50,161 nucleotides of DNA from an uncultured Candidatus Saccharibacteria bacterium (GTDB lineage Bacteria > Patescibacteriota > Minisyncoccia > Minisyncoccales > RBG-13-42-11), in contig CAYXOH010000001.1 of assembly GCA_964467045.1 (NCBI GenBank), positions 4,850-55,010 on the forward strand. Direction: 5' to 3'. Under the pieces are notes generated by a model. That model saw only the letters and a program-made list of their open reading frames with translations, was not told where the DNA came from and did no database searches. Position numbers and translations under genes: made by a program. This document shows positions 5,834-31,520 of the stretch, piece by piece. The stretch's first letter is position 1, and every line of letters begins with the position of its first letter.

Positions 5834-7465
5834 CTATTTTTTTATCTGGATACATGGTCTTTTAGCAATTATTACTGAAACCTCTGGTTTTCCTAAAAAT
5901 TCTTTTATGGTTTGAATAAATTCCTTCTGGTTTACAGGATCAATTGTTTTTACATTCTTTACCCCACAGCCCCTGATAACTGCTTCAATTTTAATTCCAT
6001 TAGGCGTAACGGGAGCTGCCGGATGAGGCTGATGGCCGGTCATAGCAGTAGTTTCGTTGTTCAGAATAATAATTAAAGGATTTGATTTGTTAAAAACTGT
6101 ATTAATTAAGGCAGGAATTCCGGCATGAAAAAAGGTGCTGTCCCCGATAATAGTTATTAACTTTTGGCCAGTAGCTTTTTTAATTCCGTGAGCAATGCCA
6201 ATTGAAGAACCCATACAGGAAAGATAATCTTGAAGATAGTGGGGCGGAAAACCGGCTAACATATAACAGCCGATATCTCCGCCAAAAACTACATTTTTAG
6301 TATCAACGGCTTTTTTAATCCCTCCAAAAACCAACCAGTAGGGACAGCCGGGACAGAGCTGGGGGAAACGTTTGGGAGCCTGTCTTTTCAATTTGACAGG
6401 TGGCATTTTGTACTTTTTATTTGTAAATTTAGCAATGGCCGAGGTAACAATTCCGGGCTTTAGTTCATCAACTTCAGGAATTAACTTTTTACCAGCCACT
6501 GCCAACTTACAGTTTACTTCTTTAGCTATTATTGCTACTTCTTTTTCTAAAAACGGCTCTAATTCTTCAACTATTAAAACTTTTTTAAAGTTCTTAATAA
6601 ACTTTTTAATTTTCTTTTCGGGCAAAGGATAAAAAAATCCCAGCTTTAAAACTGGTAAATCTAAATTCAGTTCTTTTAATGCTTCCATAACATATAAATA
6701 AGATATACCTGAAGTAATTACTCCCAAACTGGATTTTTTTGATGATTGTTTGTTGATTTGGGATTCTTCGGAAAACTCTCTTATTTTATCAATCTTTTCT
6801 AAAAGTTCTGTTTTCATCTCCATAACTCTCGGCGGCAGAGTAACAAACTTTTTGTAATCTTTAACAAATCTTCCTTCCGGGGTTTTTGATTTAGTAAACT
6901 GGATTTTACTCAAGCTTACTATGCCTCTCTGGTGAGCTACCCTGGTAGTTGTTCTTATCATCACCGGAATTTTAAACTTTTCTGAAATTTGGAAACCTAA
7001 TTTAACAAAATCCTTACATTCTTGAGGATCGGCCGGCTCTAAGGTTGGAATGTGGGCTAAATAAGAAATTCCCCTGGTATTCTCTTCTGACTGGGCTGAG
7101 CTGTGACAGGAAGGATCATCAGCTGATATTATTACTGTCGGACCCTTGGTTCCTGTATAGACAAAGGGAAGTAAAGCATCTAGGGCAACATTTGTCCCGA
7201 AATTCTTCATGGCCATTAAGGTTTTTAATCCGGAAAAAGAAGCGCCGACAGCTGCTTCTAAAGCTACTTTTTCATTTGTCGAAAATTCAAAATAGACCCC
7301 TACTTTAGGGGCAATTTTAAAGAAAGTATTGCCAATTTCTGAAGCTGGCGTTCCAGGATAAGTAGAGACAAATTGAACGCCCGATTCAAGGGCGCCTCTG
7401 ACAATTGCTTCGTTACCAAGTAAAATGATTTTTTTCCTTGGTTTATTCAAAAGGAGTTCCTCCAT
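5834..7465 (-). CDS. iorA: Indolepyruvate:ferredoxin oxidoreductase subunit alpha (TPP-binding)
   Basis: 543-aa ORF with GNEAIVRGALESGV, GTPASEI, CPGCPYW and GDSTFFHAG (TPP) motifs. The ORF ends at ..AKRPCIQIKK, so the C-terminal 2x[4Fe-4S] module found in many IorA proteins is not encoded. Confidence 0.85.
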   Translation of the reverse strand: MEELLLNKPRKKIILLGNEAIVRGALESGVQFVSTYPGTPASEIGNTFFKIAPKVGVYFEFSTNEKVALEAAVGASFSGLKTLMAMKNFGTNVALDALLPFVYTGTKGPTVIISADDPSCHSSAQSEENTRGISYLAHIPTLEPADPQECKDFVKLGFQISEKFKIPVMIRTTTRVAHQRGIVSLSKIQFTKSKTPEGRFVKDYKKFVTLPPRVMEMKTELLEKIDKIREFSEESQINKQSSKKSSLGVITSGISYLYVMEALKELNLDLPVLKLGFFYPLPEKKIKKFIKNFKKVLIVEELEPFLEKEVAIIAKEVNCKLAVAGKKLIPEVDELKPGIVTSAIAKFTNKKYKMPPVKLKRQAPKRFPQLCPGCPYWLVFGGIKKAVDTKNVVFGGDIGCYMLAGFPPHYLQDYLSCMGSSIGIAHGIKKATGQKLITIIGDSTFFHAGIPALINTVFNKSNPLIIILNNETTAMTGHQPHPAAPVTPNGIKIEAVIRGCGVKNVKTIDPVNQKEFIQTIKEFLGKPEVSVIIAKRPCIQIKK

Positions 7466-22071: not shown

Positions 22072-25000
22072 TTAAATCTTTTTAATTGCTAACCATAATT
22101 TTTGTTGCTCGACCTTTAATTCTTTTTTTATACCAAAAACTTGTTTTGGTTTTTCTCCTAAAACAAAATTTTTGACTTTTGCTTCTTTGATAATAAATTC
22201 TTTATTTTTTTGGAGGATTTTGTTTAAATTACCTTCTCCAAGAAATCTGACTAAAATTTTATCTTTTGGTTTCAAGTTGGCTTTCTTTCTCATCTCTTGG
22301 ATATTGCGGATTATCTCCCTGACGATGCCTTCTTCTTTAAGTAGCGGAGTTATTTTAGTATCTAATTCTAATTTTTCTTTAAGTTTAGAGTCAAAAACCA
22401 CTTCCTTAATGTTAACTTCTTCAGCAATTAAATTAAGTAAATCATTATCAATTTTTGACTTTTCGCTTTTAATTTTTAATTTTTGAAGCGGTTGTCTAAC
22501 TTTTATTCCGGCCCTTGCCCGCTCGGCCAGTGCTCTGGCAACAATTTCTCTTACCTCTCTCATCTTTTTTTCTAATTTATCATCTTTTATTTTTTTATTT
22601 TCTTCCGGCCAATCTTCTAAATGGCAACTTCTTTTCTTCCCCAGCCCCCGATAGATCACTTCACTTAGGAACGGAATAAAAGGAGCAGTTAGTTTGCTTA
22701 GAGTTAAAAGTGCAAAACTTAAAGTTTCCGAGACCTCTTTTAATTCTTTTTTGCTGGCAGGTTTTTGAAATCTCTTTCTGGAACGCCGGATGTACCATAA
22801 AGAAAGATCTTCAACTACAAAATTCTCAATTGCCCTAGCCGCACCAGTCACATTATACCTATTCAATCTTTGAGTGGCTTCCCGGATAAGATTATCTAGC
22901 CTGGCAATAACCCATTTATCAAGAATATGTTTGGATTTTGGAATTTGGGATTTGGAGTTTGGAATTTCTTTTTTTTGAGCATAGGTTCTTAAAAAAATAT
23001 ATGAGTTCCAGAAAGTCAAGATGAATTTTTTCAGAGCTTGGTCTACTTCTCTTTCAGAAAATAACTTAGCATCTCCCGGCTGGTTTATGGTGTAAAAGTA
23101 CCAGCGAGTGGCATCTGCTCCATATTCTTCAATAATAGAATTCGGTTCAACTACATTGCCTTTGGATTTTGACATCTTATCTCCTTTTTCATCTAAAACA
23201 TGACCCAAAGAGATAGCATTTTTATAAGTCGGCCCTTTCTTTAATAAAGTAGAGATAGCCAAAAGTGTATAAAACCACCCCCGGGTTTGATCAATGGCTT
23301 CAGAAATATAATCTGCCGGGAACTGTTCTTCCTGTAATTTTTGGTTTCCGAAAGGATAATGATATTGAGCAAAAGGCATAGCCCCTGAATCAAACCAGCA
23401 ATCAATCACTTCCGGAGTTCTCTCCATTAAGTTCTGGCATTTGGGACAATAAAATTTAACTTTATCAATGTAAGGACGGTGGAAATCTAATTCCATATTT
23501 TCGTTATACGGCAAATTACTGAACTTTAATTTTCTCAACTCTCCCGTTTTAATATGGGACCTCATTCTTTTTTCTACCATTTGTTTTTGGGAAAGTCCTT
23601 CGTTTGCCCCGGCCAAGGCAGTAATGGGGAATTCATGACTGATAATCAAAACTGTTTTATTCTGATATTTTTTATCGGTATCTTTTAAAAAAGAGTGCAT
23701 TCTTTTTTGTGCATCTGAATAATTTTCTCCTTTTGGTGCTCTAACTTTGAATCTTTTCAGATAATAATCTAATTTTTTAAGTTTTCTTTCCGGATCCCAA
23801 AATCTCCCCGCTATTTTAACTGATTTTCCGTTCAGACCGCCCATATCAAGTTCTCTTAATCTTTTGTCAAATTTCGGTTTAACTCCTGTCTCTCTTTCTA
23901 TAATTTCAGCTGTCTGTCTTGTTCTCAAAAGATCCGAAGAAAAAATTAAATCAATTTTAGCTTTTTTTATTTTTTCAGCCACTTTTGCAATTTGTCTTCT
24001 TCCTCTTTTTGTCAGGGAACATTTGCTTTTTTCTGGCCAGCAAGAAACTAAATTTTTGACATTTCTATCGGACTCCCCGTGTCTCAAAATAAGATATTTA
24101 TTACTGCTGAATTTTTTCAAGAGCAGGTCCTTTTTTGAACCAATAATTTCCACTTGGCCACATTTTTTACATTGCCAAACAGGCAGAGGTGTCCCCCAGT
24201 ATCTTTCCCTAGAAAAAGCCCAATCTTTAATTTCTCTTAACCATTCACCAAATCTCCCCTTTTTTAAATGAGCTGGAATCCAATTAATTTTTTGACTATT
24301 TGCAAGCAAACCTTTTCTGACCTTCTTTACATTTATAAACCAGCTTTGTTTAGCATAATAAAGCAAGGGTGAATTACATCGCCAACAAAAAGGATAATCG
24401 TGACTATAGGGCTCTTTTTTGAAAAGCAGGTTTCTCTTTTTTAAATCTTCAACAATTAAAGGATCAGCCTTTTTAACAAATATTCCTTTCCATGGTTTAA
24501 CTTCCGGAACGAAACAGCCAACTTCATCTACAGTAATAAAAATTGGTAAATTCTTTTCTTTTCCTAATTCCATGTCTTCTTCGCCAAAAGCCGGAGCTAT
24601 ATGAACCAATCCTGTTCCCTCTTCTAAAGAAACAAAGTTGCCAGCAACTATAAACCAAGCTTTTTTATCGGGTTTCATAAATTTATACAAAGGTTCGTAT
24701 TCTAACCCAATTAATTCTTTTCCTTTAATTTCTTCAACAATTTTCCCCTCCACCCCGGAAGCTTTCATTCTTTCCTTGGCTAAAATTAAATAGCAAGCCT
24801 CTTCCCTTGAGGAAGAAGGCGAAGATAAAGATGAGGACGAAGTCTTCATCGCCGATTCATTGTCAGCTTTCACTTTTACATAAGTTAAATTTGGGTTTAC
24901 AGCAACAGCAACATTACCGGGCAATGTCCAGGGAGTGGTCGTCCAAACCAATAAGCTGGTATCTGATTTTAATTTAAATTTTACATATATTGCCGGCTCT

Positions 25001-25587
25001 TCAATTCTTTCGTACCCCAAAGACACTTCATGAGAAGATAAACTCGTTCCACATCTTGGACAATAAGGAACTACTTTGTAATCCTGATAAATGAGGCCCT
25101 TTTTATAAATTTCTTTTAAAATCCACCAAACGCTTTCAATATATTCTGTTTCATATGTAATATAAGGATTTTTTAAATCCAACCAGAAACCGATTCTTTC
25201 GGTTAAACCTTCCCAATCTTTTTTATAATTCCAAACCGATTGTTTGCATAGTTTATTAAACTTAGCTATGCCGTATTTCTCAATATCTTTTTTGCTTTTC
25301 AATCCCAATTTCTTTTCAGTTTCTAATTCAACCGGCAATCCATGGGTATCCCAGCCAGCTTTCCTCAAAACTTTAAATCCCTGCATAGTTTTGTATCTAC
25401 AAATAATATCCTTATAAATTCTGCTTAAAACATGATGGATACCCGGTTTAGCATTAGCGGTTGGAGGTCCTTCAAAAAATACAAAATCCGGCGCCTTTTT
25501 CCGCTGCAAAATGGATTTTTCAAAAACTTGATTGTCTTGCCAAAATTTCAATATTTTCTTTTCGTTTTTGGGAAAATTTATCTCCAT
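22072..25587 (-). CDS. ileS: Isoleucine--tRNA ligase (type 2) carrying an embedded histidine-phosphatase domain and two repeat-derived insertions
   Basis: Start set at MEINFPKNEKKILKFWQ (ATG 25587, 8 nt after the argS stop); the track ORF extends 44 codons into argS. Has the PPTANAKPGIHHVLSR (HIGH-type) motif, the WAFSRERYWGTPLPVW motif and DKMSKSKGN. Confidence 0.93.
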   Translation of the reverse strand: MEINFPKNEKKILKFWQDNQVFEKSILQRKKAPDFVFFEGPPTANAKPGIHHVLSRIYKDIICRYKTMQGFKVLRKAGWDTHGLPVELETEKKLGLKSKKDIEKYGIAKFNKLCKQSVWNYKKDWEGLTERIGFWLDLKNPYITYETEYIESVWWILKEIYKKGLIYQDYKVVPYCPRCGTSLSSHEVSLGYERIEEPAIYVKFKLKSDTSLLVWTTTPWTLPGNVAVAVNPNLTYVKVKADNESAMKTSSSSLSSPSSSREEACYLILAKERMKASGVEGKIVEEIKGKELIGLEYEPLYKFMKPDKKAWFIVAGNFVSLEEGTGLVHIAPAFGEEDMELGKEKNLPIFITVDEVGCFVPEVKPWKGIFVKKADPLIVEDLKKRNLLFKKEPYSHDYPFCWRCNSPLLYYAKQSWFINVKKVRKGLLANSQKINWIPAHLKKGRFGEWLREIKDWAFSRERYWGTPLPVWQCKKCGQVEIIGSKKDLLLKKFSSNKYLILRHGESDRNVKNLVSCWPEKSKCSLTKRGRRQIAKVAEKIKKAKIDLIFSSDLLRTRQTAEIIERETGVKPKFDKRLRELDMGGLNGKSVKIAGRFWDPERKLKKLDYYLKRFKVRAPKGENYSDAQKRMHSFLKDTDKKYQNKTVLIISHEFPITALAGANEGLSQKQMVEKRMRSHIKTGELRKLKFSNLPYNENMELDFHRPYIDKVKFYCPKCQNLMERTPEVIDCWFDSGAMPFAQYHYPFGNQKLQEEQFPADYISEAIDQTRGWFYTLLAISTLLKKGPTYKNAISLGHVLDEKGDKMSKSKGNVVEPNSIIEEYGADATRWYFYTINQPGDAKLFSEREVDQALKKFILTFWNSYIFLRTYAQKKEIPNSKSQIPKSKHILDKWVIARLDNLIREATQRLNRYNVTGAARAIENFVVEDLSLWYIRRSRKRFQKPASKKELKEVSETLSFALLTLSKLTAPFIPFLSEVIYRGLGKKRSCHLEDWPEENKKIKDDKLEKKMREVREIVARALAERARAGIKVRQPLQKLKIKSEKSKIDNDLLNLIAEEVNIKEVVFDSKLKEKLELDTKITPLLKEEGIVREIIRNIQEMRKKANLKPKDKILVRFLGEGNLNKILQKNKEFIIKEAKVKNFVLGEKPKQVFGIKKELKVEQQKLWLAIKKI
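22928..22967 (-). repeat. Heptanucleotide tandem array (coding strand AYYCCAA x ~5.5) inside ileS
   Basis: The plus strand reads GTTTGG ATTTTGG AATTTGG GATTTGG AGTTTGG AATTT and encodes EIPNSKSQIPKSK. A sister array is at 25874-25906. Confidence 0.85.
23500..24102 (-). other. Histidine-phosphatase (PGAM / His_Phos_1-like) domain inserted in IleRS
   Basis: Residues ..YLILRHGESDRN....LTKRGRRQIAKV....IFSSDLLRTRQTAEII....LRELDMGGLNG....PKGENYSD..KRM..FL....VLIISHEFPI. All signature blocks of the family appear in order, between IleRS blocks KCGQVEIIGS and DFHRPYID. Confidence 0.8.
24793..24857 (-). repeat. Two-hairpin element copy, in frame and sense inside ileS
   Basis: The minus strand reads AATCGGCGATGAAGACTTCGTCCTCATCTTTATCTTCGCCTTCTTCCTCAAGGGAAGAGGCTTGC and encodes ESAMKTSSSSLSSPSSSREEAC. 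Confidence 0.8.
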
Positions 25588-25595
25588 AACTTTAT

Positions 25596-27143
25596 TTACA
25601 TTTTCTCTGGGGCAGAAATTCCCATTAATTCTAAAGTGTTCTTTAAGATAATTTTTGTAGCCAAAACCAGAGCTAAACGAGCTTGTGACAAAGACCTGCT
25701 TCCGGTCAGGACTCGACAATCCCTATAGAATTGATGGAAAGCGGTTGCCAGCTCTATTGAATATTGTGGTAATCGCTGAATTTGATAATCCTTGGCAGTG
25801 TCTTCAATAATTTCCGGCAATCTAATCAGTTGTTTAACCAAGTTAAATTCTGAAGGATGAACTAATAATTTTAAGTTTGGATTTTGGGATTTGGAATTTG
25901 GAATTTTTCGCAAGATACTGCAAATCCGGGCGTGGGCATACTGGACATAATAAACAGGACTTTTAGCAGATCTCTCTTTGGCCAAATCCACATCAAACTC
26001 CATCTGGGTATCTAACGATTTCATTAAATAAAAAAATCTTACTGCATCCAATCCCACTTCATTTATTAACCAGTCCAGAGTTATAACTTGCCCCTTCCTT
26101 TTAGAAATCTTTCCCTTTTTTAATCTGACTACCTGAGAAATTAAGATATCTAAATCTCCCTTATACCCCAACATCTTGGCCACTGCTTTTATTTTGCCGA
26201 CATGCCCCTGGTGATCAGCGCCCCAAATATTAATTATTCTATCAAATTTCCTTTCAAACTTATCTTTATGATAGACAATGTCAGAAAGCAAATAAGTTGG
26301 TTCTCCTGTTTCTCTAATTACTACCCAGTCTTTTACGTCACCATATTTTGAAGTTTTTAACCAAACAGCTCTTTCTTTTTTGTAAACTAAGTTTTTATTC
26401 GCCAGCCAATTTCTAATCTTGATTATCTTTCTTTTCTGGTATAAATCATTTTCTTCCGAAATCCATTTATCAAACTTAATTTTCATTTTATTTTCAATAA
26501 AATTTTTGATGTCTTTCTGAATTGATTGAGCTAACAGATATCCAGCCTCTCCTTCATTTTTAGATTTTTTTATTTTATTTTCTATTCTTTTAATTGCTTT
26601 TCTTAAATAATTTGTCAAATAAGTGGTTCCTCTACCCAAAGCAGTTTTTCCTAATTCTTTTATCTGGACACTGTTTTTAGAATCATTAATGTAATATTCA
26701 CGAGTAACCTTATAGCCAGATTTTTCTAAAATATTAGCCAGAGCATCACCAAAAAAAGCTCCCCTGCCGTGTCCTAAATGCAAGAGACCTGTAGGGTTAG
26801 CTGAAATAAATTCAATGTTCACCCTGCACTTTTTTCCGAAAAGTGCAGGGTGAAATTTTCCATAATTCTTTCCCTCCTTCAAAATATCTTTTACCTGTTT
26901 TTGTAAATATTCCCTGGAAAGAAAAAAATTGATAAAACCATTTTTCACTTCTACCTTCTCTAAAATGGGCGATTTTATGTTTTTAGCGATCTCTTGAGGG
27001 TTTTTCTTAAGAACCATCGCTACATTGGTAGCATAATCACCAAAGACTAGATCCACCGGCTCTTCTATTTCAACTTCTATCTTTTTCCCATAAAGACTTC
27101 TAATTGATTTTTCTACTGAATTTTTAATTTCTTCTTTAACCAT
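25596..27143 (-). CDS. argS: Arginine--tRNA ligase
   Basis: 515 aa. SANPTGLLHLGHGRGA (HIGH) and the C-terminal anticodon-binding domain ending ..ISAPEKM. Confidence 0.93.
   Translation of the reverse strand: MVKEEIKNSVEKSIRSLYGKKIEVEIEEPVDLVFGDYATNVAMVLKKNPQEIAKNIKSPILEKVEVKNGFINFFLSREYLQKQVKDILKEGKNYGKFHPALFGKKCRVNIEFISANPTGLLHLGHGRGAFFGDALANILEKSGYKVTREYYINDSKNSVQIKELGKTALGRGTTYLTNYLRKAIKRIENKIKKSKNEGEAGYLLAQSIQKDIKNFIENKMKIKFDKWISEENDLYQKRKIIKIRNWLANKNLVYKKERAVWLKTSKYGDVKDWVVIRETGEPTYLLSDIVYHKDKFERKFDRIINIWGADHQGHVGKIKAVAKMLGYKGDLDILISQVVRLKKGKISKRKGQVITLDWLINEVGLDAVRFFYLMKSLDTQMEFDVDLAKERSAKSPVYYVQYAHARICSILRKIPNSKSQNPNLKLLVHPSEFNLVKQLIRLPEIIEDTAKDYQIQRLPQYSIELATAFHQFYRDCRVLTGSRSLSQARLALVLATKIILKNTLELMGISAPEKM
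25874..25906 (-). repeat. Heptanucleotide tandem array (AYYCCAA x ~4.5) inside argS
   Basis: The plus strand reads AGTTTGG ATTTTGG GATTTGG AATTTGG AATTT and encodes KIPNSKSQNPNLK. It has the same frame and nearly the same sequence as the ileS array. Confidence 0.85.
26818..26854. repeat. Perfect 16-bp-stem hairpin inside argS coding sequence
   Basis: TTCACCCTGCACTTTT-ttccg-AAAAGTGCAGGGTGAA. It encodes KFHPALFGKKCRVN just before the HIGH region. Confidence 0.9.
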
Positions 27144-28650: not shown

Positions 28651-28851
28651 ATGAGTAAGTTAAAAACCAGAAAATCATTTACCAAACGTTTCAAAATTAC
28701 TAAAACTGGAAAAATATTGAGAAGGGCTACCGGTCTTAACCATTATCGGGCAAAAAAATCCGGTCAAAAAATAAGACAAAGTAGAAAATGGGTTAAAGTT
28801 TCCAGAAGTGAAGCTAAAAAAATAAAGAAATTACTGCCACATCGTCGATGA
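28651..28851 (+). CDS. rpmI: 50S ribosomal protein L35
   Basis: 66 aa. MSKLKTRKSFTKRFKITKTGKILRR.. is typical L35. The stop TGA lies inside the first repeat unit. Confidence 0.93.
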   Translation: MSKLKTRKSFTKRFKITKTGKILRRATGLNHYRAKKSGQKIRQSRKWVKVSRSEAKKIKKLLPHRR

Positions 28852-29009
28852 ATTTAAAGATTCATCTTCATCTGCGCCCACTACGTGGGCTTGATAACAG
28901 TCGATGAATTTAAAGATTCATCTTCATCTGCGCCCACTACGTGGGCTTGATAACAGTCGATGAATTTAAAGATTCATCTTCATCTGCGCCCACTACGTGG
29001 GCTTGATAC
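28845..29009 (+). repeat. Three direct tandem units (56, 56, 53 nt) of the two-hairpin element filling the rpmI-rplT spacer
   Basis: The unit is TCGATGAATTTAAAGATTCATCTTCATCTGCGCCCACTACGTGGGCTTGATAACAG, starting at 28845, 28901 and 28957. The hairpins are GATGAAT/ATTCATC and GCCCAC-tac-GTGGGC. Confidence 0.92.
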
Positions 29010-31175: not shown

Positions 31176-31512
31176 GGGTGTTAATTATTATTCCTTCGTT
31201 TTTTAATAAAGTGTTTTTCCTTTTAGTTCCCCGATTATAGCCACCAATTTTTCCAGTTGATGAAGACTTCGTTTTCATCTCCACGCTTCGCTTCGCTCGC
31301 GTATCTGATTTTATAATTCTGTGACAGGGAATTTTTGGATTTACATTTTTATTTAACACATTCCCTACTGCTCGCCAAGCCTTAGGCCTTCCGACAAGCT
31401 TAGCTACTTGTTTATAAGTCATTACTCTTCCCCTTGGAATTTTCTTAACAACCTCATAAACCTTATCTTCAAAATTTGTTTTATGTTCTATGTTCCATGT
31501 TCTATGTTTCAT
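31156..31512 (-). CDS. ogt: Methylated-DNA--protein-cysteine methyltransferase (Ogt/MGMT C-terminal domain type) with an element-derived insertion
   Basis: 118 aa. IPRGRVMTYKQVA, PCHRII (active site) and GKIGGY. A 16-aa insertion, TRAKRSVEMKTKSSST, lies between them. Confidence 0.85.
   Translation of the reverse strand: MKHRTWNIEHKTNFEDKVYEVVKKIPRGRVMTYKQVAKLVGRPKAWRAVGNVLNKNVNPKIPCHRIIKSDTRAKRSVEMKTKSSSTGKIGGYNRGTKRKNTLLKNEGIIINTHGKITS
31256..31302 (+). repeat. Two-hairpin element copy inside ogt, antisense to the gene, frame preserved
   Basis: The plus strand reads GTTGATGAAGACTTCGTTTTCATCTCCACGCTTCGCTTCGCTCGCGT. The first 24 nt are almost identical to the ileS copy. Confidence 0.8.
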
Positions 31513-31520
31513 GTTCTATG
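31482..31520. repeat. Heptanucleotide tandem array (plus YATGTTY, minus RAACATR, ~5.5 units) spanning the NUDIX stop and the ogt start
   Basis: TATGTTC TATGTTC CATGTTC TATGTTT CATGTTC TATGAG. The ogt ATG (31512) and the NUDIX TAG (31502-31504) both lie inside it. Confidence 0.85.

What the first reader, a model, noticed from the sequence alone, without database searches (positions are those of the whole stretch)
22928..22967. The same heptanucleotide array (AYYCCAA)n is embedded, in the same frame, in two different aminoacyl-tRNA synthetase genes
The ileS coding strand reads ATT CCA AAC TCC AAA TCC CAA ATT CCA AAA TCC AAA (IPNSKSQIPKSK; 22928-22967). The argS coding strand reads ATT CCA AAT TCC AAA TCC CAA AAT CCA AAC (IPNSKSQNPN; 25874-25906). 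The period is 7 nt, not 3, so this is not an amino-acid repeat. The two arrays differ essentially by one unit. Both fall in variable linkers (in ArgS right after the conserved YAHARICSILRK). Possible explanations are a second kind of mini-insertion that moves between genes, gene conversion between the two neighbouring genes (they are 3 kb apart), or a shared nucleic-acid signal such as a protein or RNA binding site.
Basis: seen in the sequence. Interest (0 to 1): 0.6.

Follow-up and report, generated by a model that had tools for sequence, protein, structure and literature searches.

The report
In-frame heptamer repeats in synthetase genes
The matching 7-base repeat runs inside the isoleucyl- and arginyl-tRNA synthetase genes are two copies of a repeat class that is common in this group of ultra-small (CPR/Paceibacteria) bacteria, where such runs are read in frame as surface loops of many essential enzymes and are replaced again and again at the same loop positions.

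Summary
ileS (22930-22967) and argS (25876-25906) each carry an (AAATYCC)n array on the coding strand. Both read IPNSKSQ and differ by one unit plus one base.

It is not a two-gene curiosity. Similar arrays sit in frame in uvrA, pheT, gatA, rnhB and murB. Period 7 is the only enriched non-triplet period: 7 arrays against about 0 in simulations.

In relatives (Nealsonbacteria/Paceibacteria) the density ranges from 0 to 36 arrays per 100 kb. The same ArgRS and IleRS loops hold clear heptamer arrays in 24 of 82 and 13 of 81 sequences. Units differ even between sister taxa, and the outgroup sequences have none.

Arrays are almost always in frame, with the A-rich strand as sense. Clean ones peak at 31-34 nt and are unstructured. 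The ArgRS array encodes a low-confidence coil. I found no sign of phase variation.

Shared degenerate tails and identical complex arrays at different loci indicate copying between loci. In relatives, inverted arrays bracket PF05635 genes and GC-rich palindromes nest inside arrays.

Best reading: tolerated, copy-prone STRR-like repeat DNA, filtered by selection. Gene conversion may explain the ileS/argS likeness only. This is a new variant of a known kind.

The parts
22930..22967 (-). Heptanucleotide array in ileS: (AAATTCC/AAACTCC/AAATCCC/AAAATCC), 5.4 units. It encodes EIPNSKSQIPKSK in the loop between ...FWNSYIFLRTYAQKK and HILDKWVIARL.
   Evidence: the orthologous loop carries arrays of other units in 13 of 81 sequences
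25876..25906 (-). Heptanucleotide array in argS, 4.4 units. It encodes KIPNSKSQNPN directly after YAHARICSILRK. In the model these are coil residues 413-423 between two helices.
   Evidence: the orthologous loop carries arrays of other units in 24 of 82 sequences
22072..25719 (-). ileS open reading frame (1215 aa), host of the first array
25596..27143 (-). argS open reading frame (515 aa), host of the second array
31477..31520 (-). Second heptamer family in the window, (ATAGAAC/ATGAAAC/ATGGAAC)n, 6.3 units. It spans the junction of the Nudix gene and ogt, and contains the Nudix stop codon and the ogt ATG.

Best explanation
The two arrays belong to a class of short tandem heptanucleotide arrays, comparable to STRR or 'long SSR' repeats. 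This class populates many Paceibacteria/Nealsonbacteria (CPR) genomes. Modules of about 4-5 units (31-34 nt) arise or are copied into permissive DNA, which includes the surface loops of essential enzymes.

Inside genes, selection keeps only arrays that meet three conditions: the sense strand has no stop codon in any of the three frames, the peptide is hydrophilic (K/S/N/Q/I/P), and the net length keeps the frame. Such arrays then decay by point mutation, or are overwritten by a new array of another unit.

The arrays do nothing for IleRS or ArgRS beyond supplying a flexible coil. The ileS and argS arrays are nearly identical because one was copied from the other, or both from one source, recently.

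Shown here: the periodicity, the enrichment, in-frame coil coding, recurrence at orthologous loops with different units, signs of copying between loci in relatives, and the absence of frameshifted alleles. Inferred: the writing or copying mechanism itself (slippage in steps of three units, or templated copy/gene conversion) and the lack of any host function.
For: Period 7 is the only enriched non-triplet period in this genome: 7 arrays against about 0 simulated.

The same holds in relatives. Counts were 34, 102 and 16 arrays in about 300 kb of G015, G020 and G002, and 96 in 485 kb of diverse Paceibacteria loci, where no other period exceeds 6.

In this genome the arrays sit in frame in ileS, argS, uvrA, pheT, gatA, rnhB, murB and a glycosyltransferase.

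The ArgRS loop has clear period-7 arrays in 24 of 82 sequences, with about 17 different units. Periods 5, 6, 8 and 9 never score above 9 there. The IleRS loop has them in 13 of 81 sequences, and none of the non-CPR outgroup sequences does.

On the ArgRS tree the arrays are scattered. Sister taxa carry different units, and the same unit appears in distant leaves.

Arrays occupy orthologous positions in uvrA, rnhB, gatA, pheT, murB and ileS of G015, G020 and G002, often as inserts of 6-7 aa.

There are signs of copying between loci. Five G015 AAAAGTC arrays share the degenerate tail YTACAAnnnAAAAnnTAAA. Identical 63-65-nt complex arrays recur at different G020 loci. Each genome has its own dominant units. 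The ileS/argS pair is the most similar pair in this genome.

Selection acts as a filter. The A-rich strand is the sense strand in 63 of 70 in-ORF arrays. 146 of 254 arrays lie in an open frame, and only 3 look like genes shifted by one or two units. Clean in-ORF arrays peak at 31-34 nt, while those outside ORFs show no such peak.

The ArgRS array encodes a coil of lower confidence in a model with mean pLDDT 92. The sense RNA has no predicted structure, MFE 0.

Density ranges from 0 to 36 arrays per 100 kb among genera of similar GC content. All of them lack MutS. This points to lineage-specific activity rather than uniform slippage.
Against: The copying evidence is strongest in the relatives G015 and G020. 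In this genome it rests on one pair of arrays, with p of about 0.02.

This genome has few arrays (9) and no PF05635 gene. Its arrays may be old inherited remnants, not products of a current process.

The closest relative has a decayed homologous array in argS and none in ileS. That fits vertical descent for argS.

Persistence of arrays at the same loops across a whole class could also mean that selection favours them.
Confidence: 0.6

Rival explanations
1. Pure local replication slippage. Each array grew on the spot from a resident 10-13-nt seed, by polymerase slippage that favours 7-nt steps. This is the polymerase-footprint idea of Mrazek et al. 2007 as cited in PMC4692102. Nothing moves between loci. 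Mismatch repair is absent, and inside genes only changes of three units survive.
For: MutS is absent in 31 of 31 genomes. In-ORF arrays peak at 4.4-4.9 units, which is one resident unit plus three. Many arrays are inserts of 6-7 aa relative to orthologues. Units are very diverse, as site-specific seeds would predict. Heptamer over-representation among SSRs is reported for many bacteria (PMC4692102).
Against: Five G015 loci share degenerate tails and G020 loci share identical complex arrays. Dominant units are genome-specific. Density varies more than 30-fold among genera of similar GC content that all lack MutS. Sister taxa carry unrelated units at the same loop. A single step of +21 nt from a single unit is hard to obtain by simple slippage.
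Confidence: 0.2
2. Functional nucleic-acid signal. The arrays are binding sites on DNA or mRNA for a multimeric factor that reads tandem heptamers whatever the exact unit. One candidate is the pentameric PF05635 protein, whose genes are bracketed by inverted arrays in relatives. Other candidates are S1, Csp or CsrA-type RNA binders as proposed for TAACTGA repeats. On this reading the arrays modulate expression or processing of the host genes.
For: Arrays persist at the same loops across a whole class. The preferred size is 4-5 units. Inverted arrays flank PF05635 genes in at least 5 of 12 loci. The sense RNA is single-stranded and so accessible. A regulator-binding role has been proposed for intergenic TAACTGA heptamers (PMC4679880).
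Against: Units differ widely between genomes and even within one genome. This genome and G002 have arrays but no PF05635 gene, and copy number does not track array density (rho 0.36, p 0.38, n = 8). Some relatives have no arrays at all, for example G007 with 0 in 400 kb. Host genes cover many functions.
Confidence: 0.1
3. An isolated gene-conversion event between two neighbouring genes, one of the first reader's options. On this reading a single array arose once in argS or ileS and was copied 3 kb away, and no wider phenomenon exists.
For: The pair is the most similar in the genome: 29 of 31 ungapped matches, or a difference of one unit plus one base. The genes are adjacent and co-oriented. 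The closest relative has a homologous decayed array in argS but none in ileS.
Against: Further arrays of the same family occur in uvrA, pheT and rnhB on other contigs. Hundreds of arrays occur in relatives. Arrays with other units occupy the same two loops in many genera.
Confidence: 0.05
4. Phase-variable contingency locus. Changes in unit number would switch the synthetases on and off or change their frame.
For: A 7-nt unit shifts the frame with each unit gained or lost. Heptanucleotide phase variation is known in Haemophilus HMW adhesin genes (PMC8262952, listed).
Against: The host genes are essential housekeeping genes. The arrays lie deep inside them, not near the 5' end. Only 3 of the 108 arrays not in an open frame could be restored by a shift of one or two units (254 arrays tested, 146 in frame).
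Confidence: 0.02

Closest known systems
STRR / heptameric long SSRs of cyanobacteria and Xanthomonas (Mazel 1990; Mrazek, Guo & Shah 2007; Rehm et al. 2015, PMC4692102)
   Same: Both are tandem 7-nt units present in many copies per genome, typically about 4 units long. Period 7 stands out among SSR periods. Unit families are lineage-specific, units resemble each other (GGGATTT/GGAATTT here, GGGGATT in Nostoc), and inverted pairs occur.
   Different: The published examples are mainly intergenic, under-represented in coding DNA, and explained by G-quadruplex formation. Here most arrays in several genomes lie in frame inside essential genes, at orthologous loops, and most units have no G-tracts.
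TAACTGA direct repeats of Beggiatoaceae, Cyanobacteria and Bacteroidetes (MacGregor 2015, PMC4679880)
   Same: Both are heptamer direct repeats of 2-6 copies scattered through the genome. Orientation inside ORFs is dictated by stop codons. A few lie inside or at the ends of ORFs. The array at 31477-31520 in this window, at a gene junction just before a start codon, resembles that arrangement.
   Different: TAACTGA is one fixed unit, lies mostly just upstream of start codons, and is proposed to be regulatory. Here many units occur, mostly inside coding loops.
Small dispersed repeats nested in tandem heptamers in Nostoc (Elhai et al. 2008, Genome Res 18:1484). The content is from my own knowledge; the reference was confirmed but the paper is not held.
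   Same: In relatives, small GC-rich hairpin mini-elements sit inside heptamer arrays, and the array phase continues across the insert.
   Different: The cyanobacterial cases are intergenic. Here both the array and the nested hairpin are translated in frame. No such nested insert is present in the two arrays of this window.
Rickettsia palindromic elements (RPE) and the RPE-like two-hairpin element of this genome
   Same: Both are selfish repeats tolerated in frame within loops of essential proteins.
   Different: RPEs are palindromic hairpins of 100-150 nt. The heptamer arrays have no self-complementarity (MFE 0) and are tandem repeats. Copies of this genome's own hairpin element are not flanked by heptamers.
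PF05635 ('23S rRNA intervening sequence protein') cassettes with inverted heptamer arms
   Same: In relatives, arrays of the same type bracket PF05635 genes as inverted arms.
   Different: This genome has no PF05635 gene, and the ileS and argS arrays have no inverted partner. The link between solo arrays and cassettes is only an association.

Membership tests
Heptameric long SSR / STRR-type repeats | Head-to-tail repeats of a 7-nt unit, three or more copies | tested here: met
   TRF gives period 7 with 5.4 and 4.4 copies and 83-87% matches
Heptameric long SSR / STRR-type repeats | Genome-wide over-representation of period 7 relative to other periods and to chance | tested here: met
   7 arrays against about 0 simulated. 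Relatives have 34, 102 and 16 arrays, against at most 11 for any other period. Diverse loci give 96 against at most 6.
Heptameric long SSR / STRR-type repeats | Predominantly intergenic location, as described for Nostoc and Xanthomonas | tested here: not met
   6 of 9 arrays in this genome and 28 of 38 in G015 lie deep inside long ORFs. 146 of 254 lie in an open frame.
Heptameric long SSR / STRR-type repeats | Unit-number polymorphism between strains | not testable with these tools
A flank-pattern scan of metagenome contigs found nothing.
G-quadruplex-forming heptamers (GGGNATC type) | Four or more consecutive tracts of at least 3 G on one strand | tested here: not met
   The antisense strands of the ileS and argS arrays have mostly GG tracts. 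Most units in relatives have no G-tract. Only the uvrA array has four G3-4 tracts.
Phase-variable contingency SSR | Alleles differing by units that are not multiples of three, switching the gene off, usually near the 5' end of non-essential surface genes | tested here: not met
   The hosts are essential aaRS genes and the arrays lie at residues 918 and 413. Only 3 of 254 arrays look like genes shifted by one or two units.
RPE-like in-frame palindromic elements | Self-complementary hairpin structure | tested here: not met
   Sense-strand MFE is 0.0 and -0.4 kcal/mol, no better than shuffles
PF05635 (IVS-protein) cassette arms | An inverted pair of arrays flanking a PF05635 ORF | tested here: not met
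   There is no PF05635 match in this genome and no inverted partner beside either array. The feature is met in relatives at L245, L248, L249, L251 and L255.
Amino-acid (triplet-based) repeat | Period divisible by 3 at the nucleotide level | tested here: not met
   The period is 7. The peptide IPNSKSQ is the three-frame reading of one unit.

The most novel reading that the evidence does not exclude
Paceibacteria (CPR) may harbour an active, so far undescribed process that writes heptamer arrays. It would place modules of about 4-5 units (a net +21 nt or a whole 31-34-nt block) at short seeds, re-write them with new units at the same loops, and supply the inverted arms of PF05635 cassettes. Because 7 = 1 mod 3, such arrays would also act as 'frame buffers'. 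An out-of-frame mini-insert, such as the GC-rich palindromes nested in them, could be brought back into frame by gain or loss of one unit. L167 against L202 shows this pattern: +43 nt of hairpin with loss of one 7-nt unit. The arrays would then be a general route by which selfish DNA becomes protein loop sequence in reduced genomes.
Probability: 0.25. Interest if true: 0.8.

Novelty: new variant of a known kind. Interest (0 to 1): 0.55.

Why it matters
Heptanucleotide repeats have been known since 1990 and are still unexplained. They are described as intergenic features. Here they are translated in essential enzymes of a whole class of ultra-small bacteria. They occur at the same loops with ever-changing units, which gives a natural comparative system of hundreds of datable gains, replacements and decays.

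This system could be used to work out how heptamer arrays arise: by slippage, by templated copying or by mobility. It also shows how non-coding-type repeat DNA is turned into protein sequence in genomes under strong reduction. On the practical side, it warns annotators and phylogeneticists that K/S/N/Q-rich loops in CPR housekeeping proteins are repeat DNA, not homologous residues.

Tried and rejected

2. An exact flank-pattern scan of metagenome contigs for strain variants of the ileS array found nothing.

3. I tested whether heptamers are accumulated 7-bp target-site duplications of this genome's two-hairpin element. Copies of that element are not flanked by heptamers. Inside arrays, a target-site duplication cannot be told apart from a phase-preserving insertion. 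I dropped the idea.

4. I tested whether PF05635 copy number predicts array density. It does not (rho 0.36, p 0.38, n = 8). Only the local bracketing of PF05635 genes by inverted arrays holds.

5. G-quadruplex formation is rejected as a general explanation, because most units lack G-tracts.

6. The orientation bias is not evidence for an RNA-level mechanism. Most T-rich orientations carry TGA or TAG in one frame, and the stop-free ones encode F/G/I/W/L peptides. Selection on the peptide is enough to explain it.

7. Mrazek 2007 (PMC1895974) and Elhai 2008 (PMC2527708) are not held. I cite them second-hand or from memory.

9. Literature searches for heptanucleotide repeats in CPR/Patescibacteria found no description.
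Full report
**1. The observation**

Both genes lie on the minus strand.
- ileS (22072-25719) reads ...AAA AAA GAA ATT CCA AAC TCC AAA TCC CAA ATT CCA AAA TCC AAA CAT..., which gives QKKEIPNSKSQIPKSKH.
- argS (25596-27143) reads ...CGA AAA ATT CCA AAT TCC AAA TCC CAA AAT CCA AAC TTA..., which gives RKIPNSKSQNPNL.
- Tandem Repeats Finder gives period 7 with 5.4 copies at 22930-22967 and 4.4 copies at 25876-25906.
- The arrays differ by one unit and one C/T change.
- The stated coordinates, peptides and context (right after YAHARICSILRK) are correct.

**2. It is not chance and not limited to two genes**

The assembly is 429 kb in 33 contigs with 36% GC. It holds further arrays of the same unit family:
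- uvrA: QIPNPKPQIPN
- pheT: LNSKFQIPN
- rnhB: VQIPNSKFLIPK

Other heptamer families occur in gatA, in murB (two arrays), in a glycosyltransferase, and at the Nudix/ogt junction at 31477-31520.

With one TRF filter (score >=40, >=3 copies, GC >=0.2), period 7 gives 7 arrays. No other period gives more than 2. Ten Markov-3 simulated genomes gave none at period 7 and about 0.1 per period elsewhere.

**3. Lineage and breadth**

Record titles of ArgRS relatives place the genome among Nealsonbacteria/Parcubacteria (Paceibacteria, CPR). I ran TRF on about 300 kb of each of three relatives. Arrays passing the filter at period 7, against the best other period:

| Genome | Period-7 arrays | Any other period |
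|---|---|---|
| G015 | 34 | at most 4 |
| G020 | 102 | at most 22 (period 14); at most 11 otherwise |
| G002 | 16 | at most 5 |

Across 485 kb of 160 diverse loci, period 7 gives 96 arrays and no other period more than 6.

Density ranges from 0 (G007, 400 kb) to 36 per 100 kb (G020). These genera have 31-40% GC. None of 31 related genomes has MutS, whereas the control set finds it in 11 of 14.

**4. The same loops, different units**

ArgRS loop:
- Of 82 ArgRS sequences, 24 have a clear period-7 array in the loop after ...ARICSILRK. A few genomes appear in both collections, so the set is not fully non-redundant.
- About 17 different units occur, including AAAATCC, AAAAGTC, AAAAATC, AAGTATC, AATTATC, AACATCC, GAAATCC and AAAACAC.
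- Periods 5, 6, 8 and 9 never score above 9 in that loop.

IleRS loop:
- Of 81 sequences, 13 have arrays in the loop F..TY...LDKW.
- These include Terrybacteria (AGGGTAC), Niyogibacteria (ACAAGTT) and Gribaldobacteria (AAAGCGC).
- None of the Bacteroidota, Chloroflexota or archaeal outgroup sequences has one.

On an ArgRS tree built with the loop masked, the 21 arrays are scattered. Sister taxa carry unrelated units (L033 AAGCTAC, L034 AAAAACC). The same unit turns up in distant leaves.

Orthologous-site arrays between this genome and G015, G020 or G002 also occur in uvrA, rnhB, gatA, pheT, murB and a second IleRS site. They are often inserts of 6-7 aa relative to the array-free orthologue.

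The closest relative found (ArgRS 77% identical) has a decayed homologous array in argS (IPNHKFPDSN) and no array in ileS.

**5. Properties inside genes**

- The A-rich strand is the sense strand in 63 of 70 in-ORF arrays. Most T-rich orientations contain TGA or TAG in one of the three frames. The stop-free ones would encode F/G/I/W/L. Selection on the peptide therefore accounts for the bias.
- 146 of 254 arrays lie in a frame that stays open for 180 nt on both sides. Only 3 of the rest become open after adding or removing one or two units. So I see no evidence of phase variation.
- Clean in-ORF arrays peak at 31-34 nt (53 of 104). Arrays outside ORFs show no such peak between 24 and 34 nt. 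This fits one resident unit plus three added units (+21 nt).
- An AlphaFold2 model of ArgRS from a 38-sequence alignment has mean pLDDT 92 and pTM 0.91. It places residues 413-423 in a coil between helices 396-412 and 430-439. That ten-residue block has the second-lowest confidence, 68.
- The sense RNA of both arrays has no predicted structure.

**6. Evidence that arrays are copied, not only grown in place**

- In G015, five AAAAGTC arrays in different genes share the degenerate 3' tail YTACAAnnnAAAAnnTAAA.
- In G020, identical 63-65-nt complex arrays recur at separate loci. Their architecture is (unit)4-AAAC/AAAT-(unit)4, and many form inverted pairs.
- Each genome has its own dominant units: AAATTCC here, AAAAGTC in G015, AAATCTC/AAAATTC/AAAGTTC in G020 and AAATTAG in G002.
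- In this genome the ileS/argS pair is the most similar pair, with score 25 against 12-21 for the others. In a simulation of independent arrays drawn from one consensus, 2.3% reach that score.

So a recent copy between the two neighbouring genes, or from one common source, is likely for this pair. It is not proven.

**7. Associations seen in relatives**

Small GC-rich palindromes sit inside the arrays of the ArgRS or IleRS loop in at least ten lineages, and the array phase continues across the insert. One close pair shows the event: L167 has 43 nt of hairpin where L202 has one 7-nt unit, a net gain of 36 nt, and stays in frame.

I followed a lead from earlier notes of this scan and searched for PF05635 ('23S rRNA intervening-sequence protein'). 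Twelve of 31 relatives have it and this genome does not. In at least five of twelve loci the gene is bracketed by inverted heptamer arrays. Copy number does not predict array density (rho 0.36, p 0.38, n = 8).

Copies of this genome's own two-hairpin element are not flanked by heptamers.

**8. What is known**

- Heptamers are reported as the over-represented class among long SSRs in many bacteria, with a polymerase-footprint slippage hypothesis (Mrazek et al. 2007, as cited in PMC4692102).
- GGGAATC arrays in Xanthomonas and GGGGA(T/C)T arrays in Nostoc are intergenic, prefer four units and form G-quadruplexes (PMC4692102).
- TAACTGA repeats in Beggiatoaceae, cyanobacteria and Bacteroidetes lie mostly just upstream of start codons (PMC4679880).
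- Calothrix STRR sequences date from 1990.
- Elhai et al. 2008 described tiny hairpin elements nested in tandem heptamers. That is from my memory; the reference was confirmed.
- My searches found no description of in-frame heptamer arrays in essential genes of CPR bacteria.

**9. Verdict**

The arrays are two members of a clade-wide class of heptanucleotide arrays that are translated as coil loops.

The best-supported account is tolerated, copy-prone repeat DNA filtered by selection for frame, absence of stops and a hydrophilic peptide (confidence 0.6). Pure local slippage comes next (0.2). A unit-independent binding signal is possible (0.1). Gene conversion explains at most the likeness of this one pair. 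Phase variation is disfavoured.

The finding is a new variant of a known kind: known repeat class, unusual coding context and turnover at orthologous loops. The writing mechanism remains inferred. The decisive data would be read-level and strain-level comparisons, which I could not obtain here.

Noticed in passing
window 31477-31520 (minus strand): An (ATAGAAC/ATGAAAC/ATGGAAC)n heptamer array of 6.3 units spans the Nudix/ogt gene junction. It contains both the Nudix stop codon and the ogt ATG, so the two ORFs overlap within the array. Related arrays lie at C14:1657-1683 and C21:6174-6200.
   Followed up: partly
window 28844-29008: A perfect 56-nt tandem repeat of 2.9 copies (GTCGATGAATTTAAAGATTCATCTTCATCTGCGCCCACTACGTGGGCTTGATAACA). 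It is the two-hairpin element family already noted for this genome. Its dispersed copies are not flanked by heptamers.
   Followed up: partly
window 23500-24102 (ileS): IleRS carries an inserted histidine-phosphatase-like segment (LILRHGESDRN...) and a Ser-rich insert (SSSSLSSPSSS). Both are unrelated to the heptamer array.
   Followed up: no
G000 C17:4898-4930 (uvrA): The antisense strand of the uvrA array reads GGGGATTTGGGGTTTGGGATTTGGG. Its four G3-4 tracts make it the only array in this genome with G-quadruplex potential.
   Followed up: no
L249:1416-1869, L251:1419-1884, L255:1433-1811, L245:1449-1850, L248:1461-1884: In relatives, PF05635 ('23S rRNA IVS protein') genes are bracketed by inverted heptamer arrays. 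The gene is absent from the window's genome.
   Followed up: partly
L010, L033, L041, L042, L043, L068, L081, L090, L098 (ArgRS loop); L167, L214 (IleRS loop): GC-rich palindromic mini-inserts of 17-57 nt are nested in the heptamer arrays and read in frame. Comparing L167 with L202 shows 43 nt inserted with loss of one 7-nt unit.
   Followed up: partly
L127:2920-3170 and 5930-6170; L125:4930-5110 (G020): Composite intergenic elements with this layout: a hairpin TTGAATTAC...GTAATTCAA, an A-rich array of about 65 nt, the inverted T-rich array, then a second hairpin. Nearly identical copies recur at several loci.
   Followed up: no
G007 (L277-L296, 400 kb): This genus of the same family has no heptamer array passing the filter, whereas G020 has 36 per 100 kb. 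Array load therefore differs sharply between sister genera.
   Followed up: partly
G000-G030: The MutS domain V (PF00488) was found in none of 31 genomes of this order. The control set finds it in 11 of 14.
   Followed up: yes
L116:8532-8562 (G015) and the orthologous IleRS site in G002: A second IleRS site, after VRQPL, carries a perfect (GAATTAC)4.4 array in G015. It encodes ELRITNYELRK, and G002 has almost the same peptide (ELRITNYELRR). G020 has a different array there, and this genome has KLKIKSEKSKIDN.
   Followed up: no
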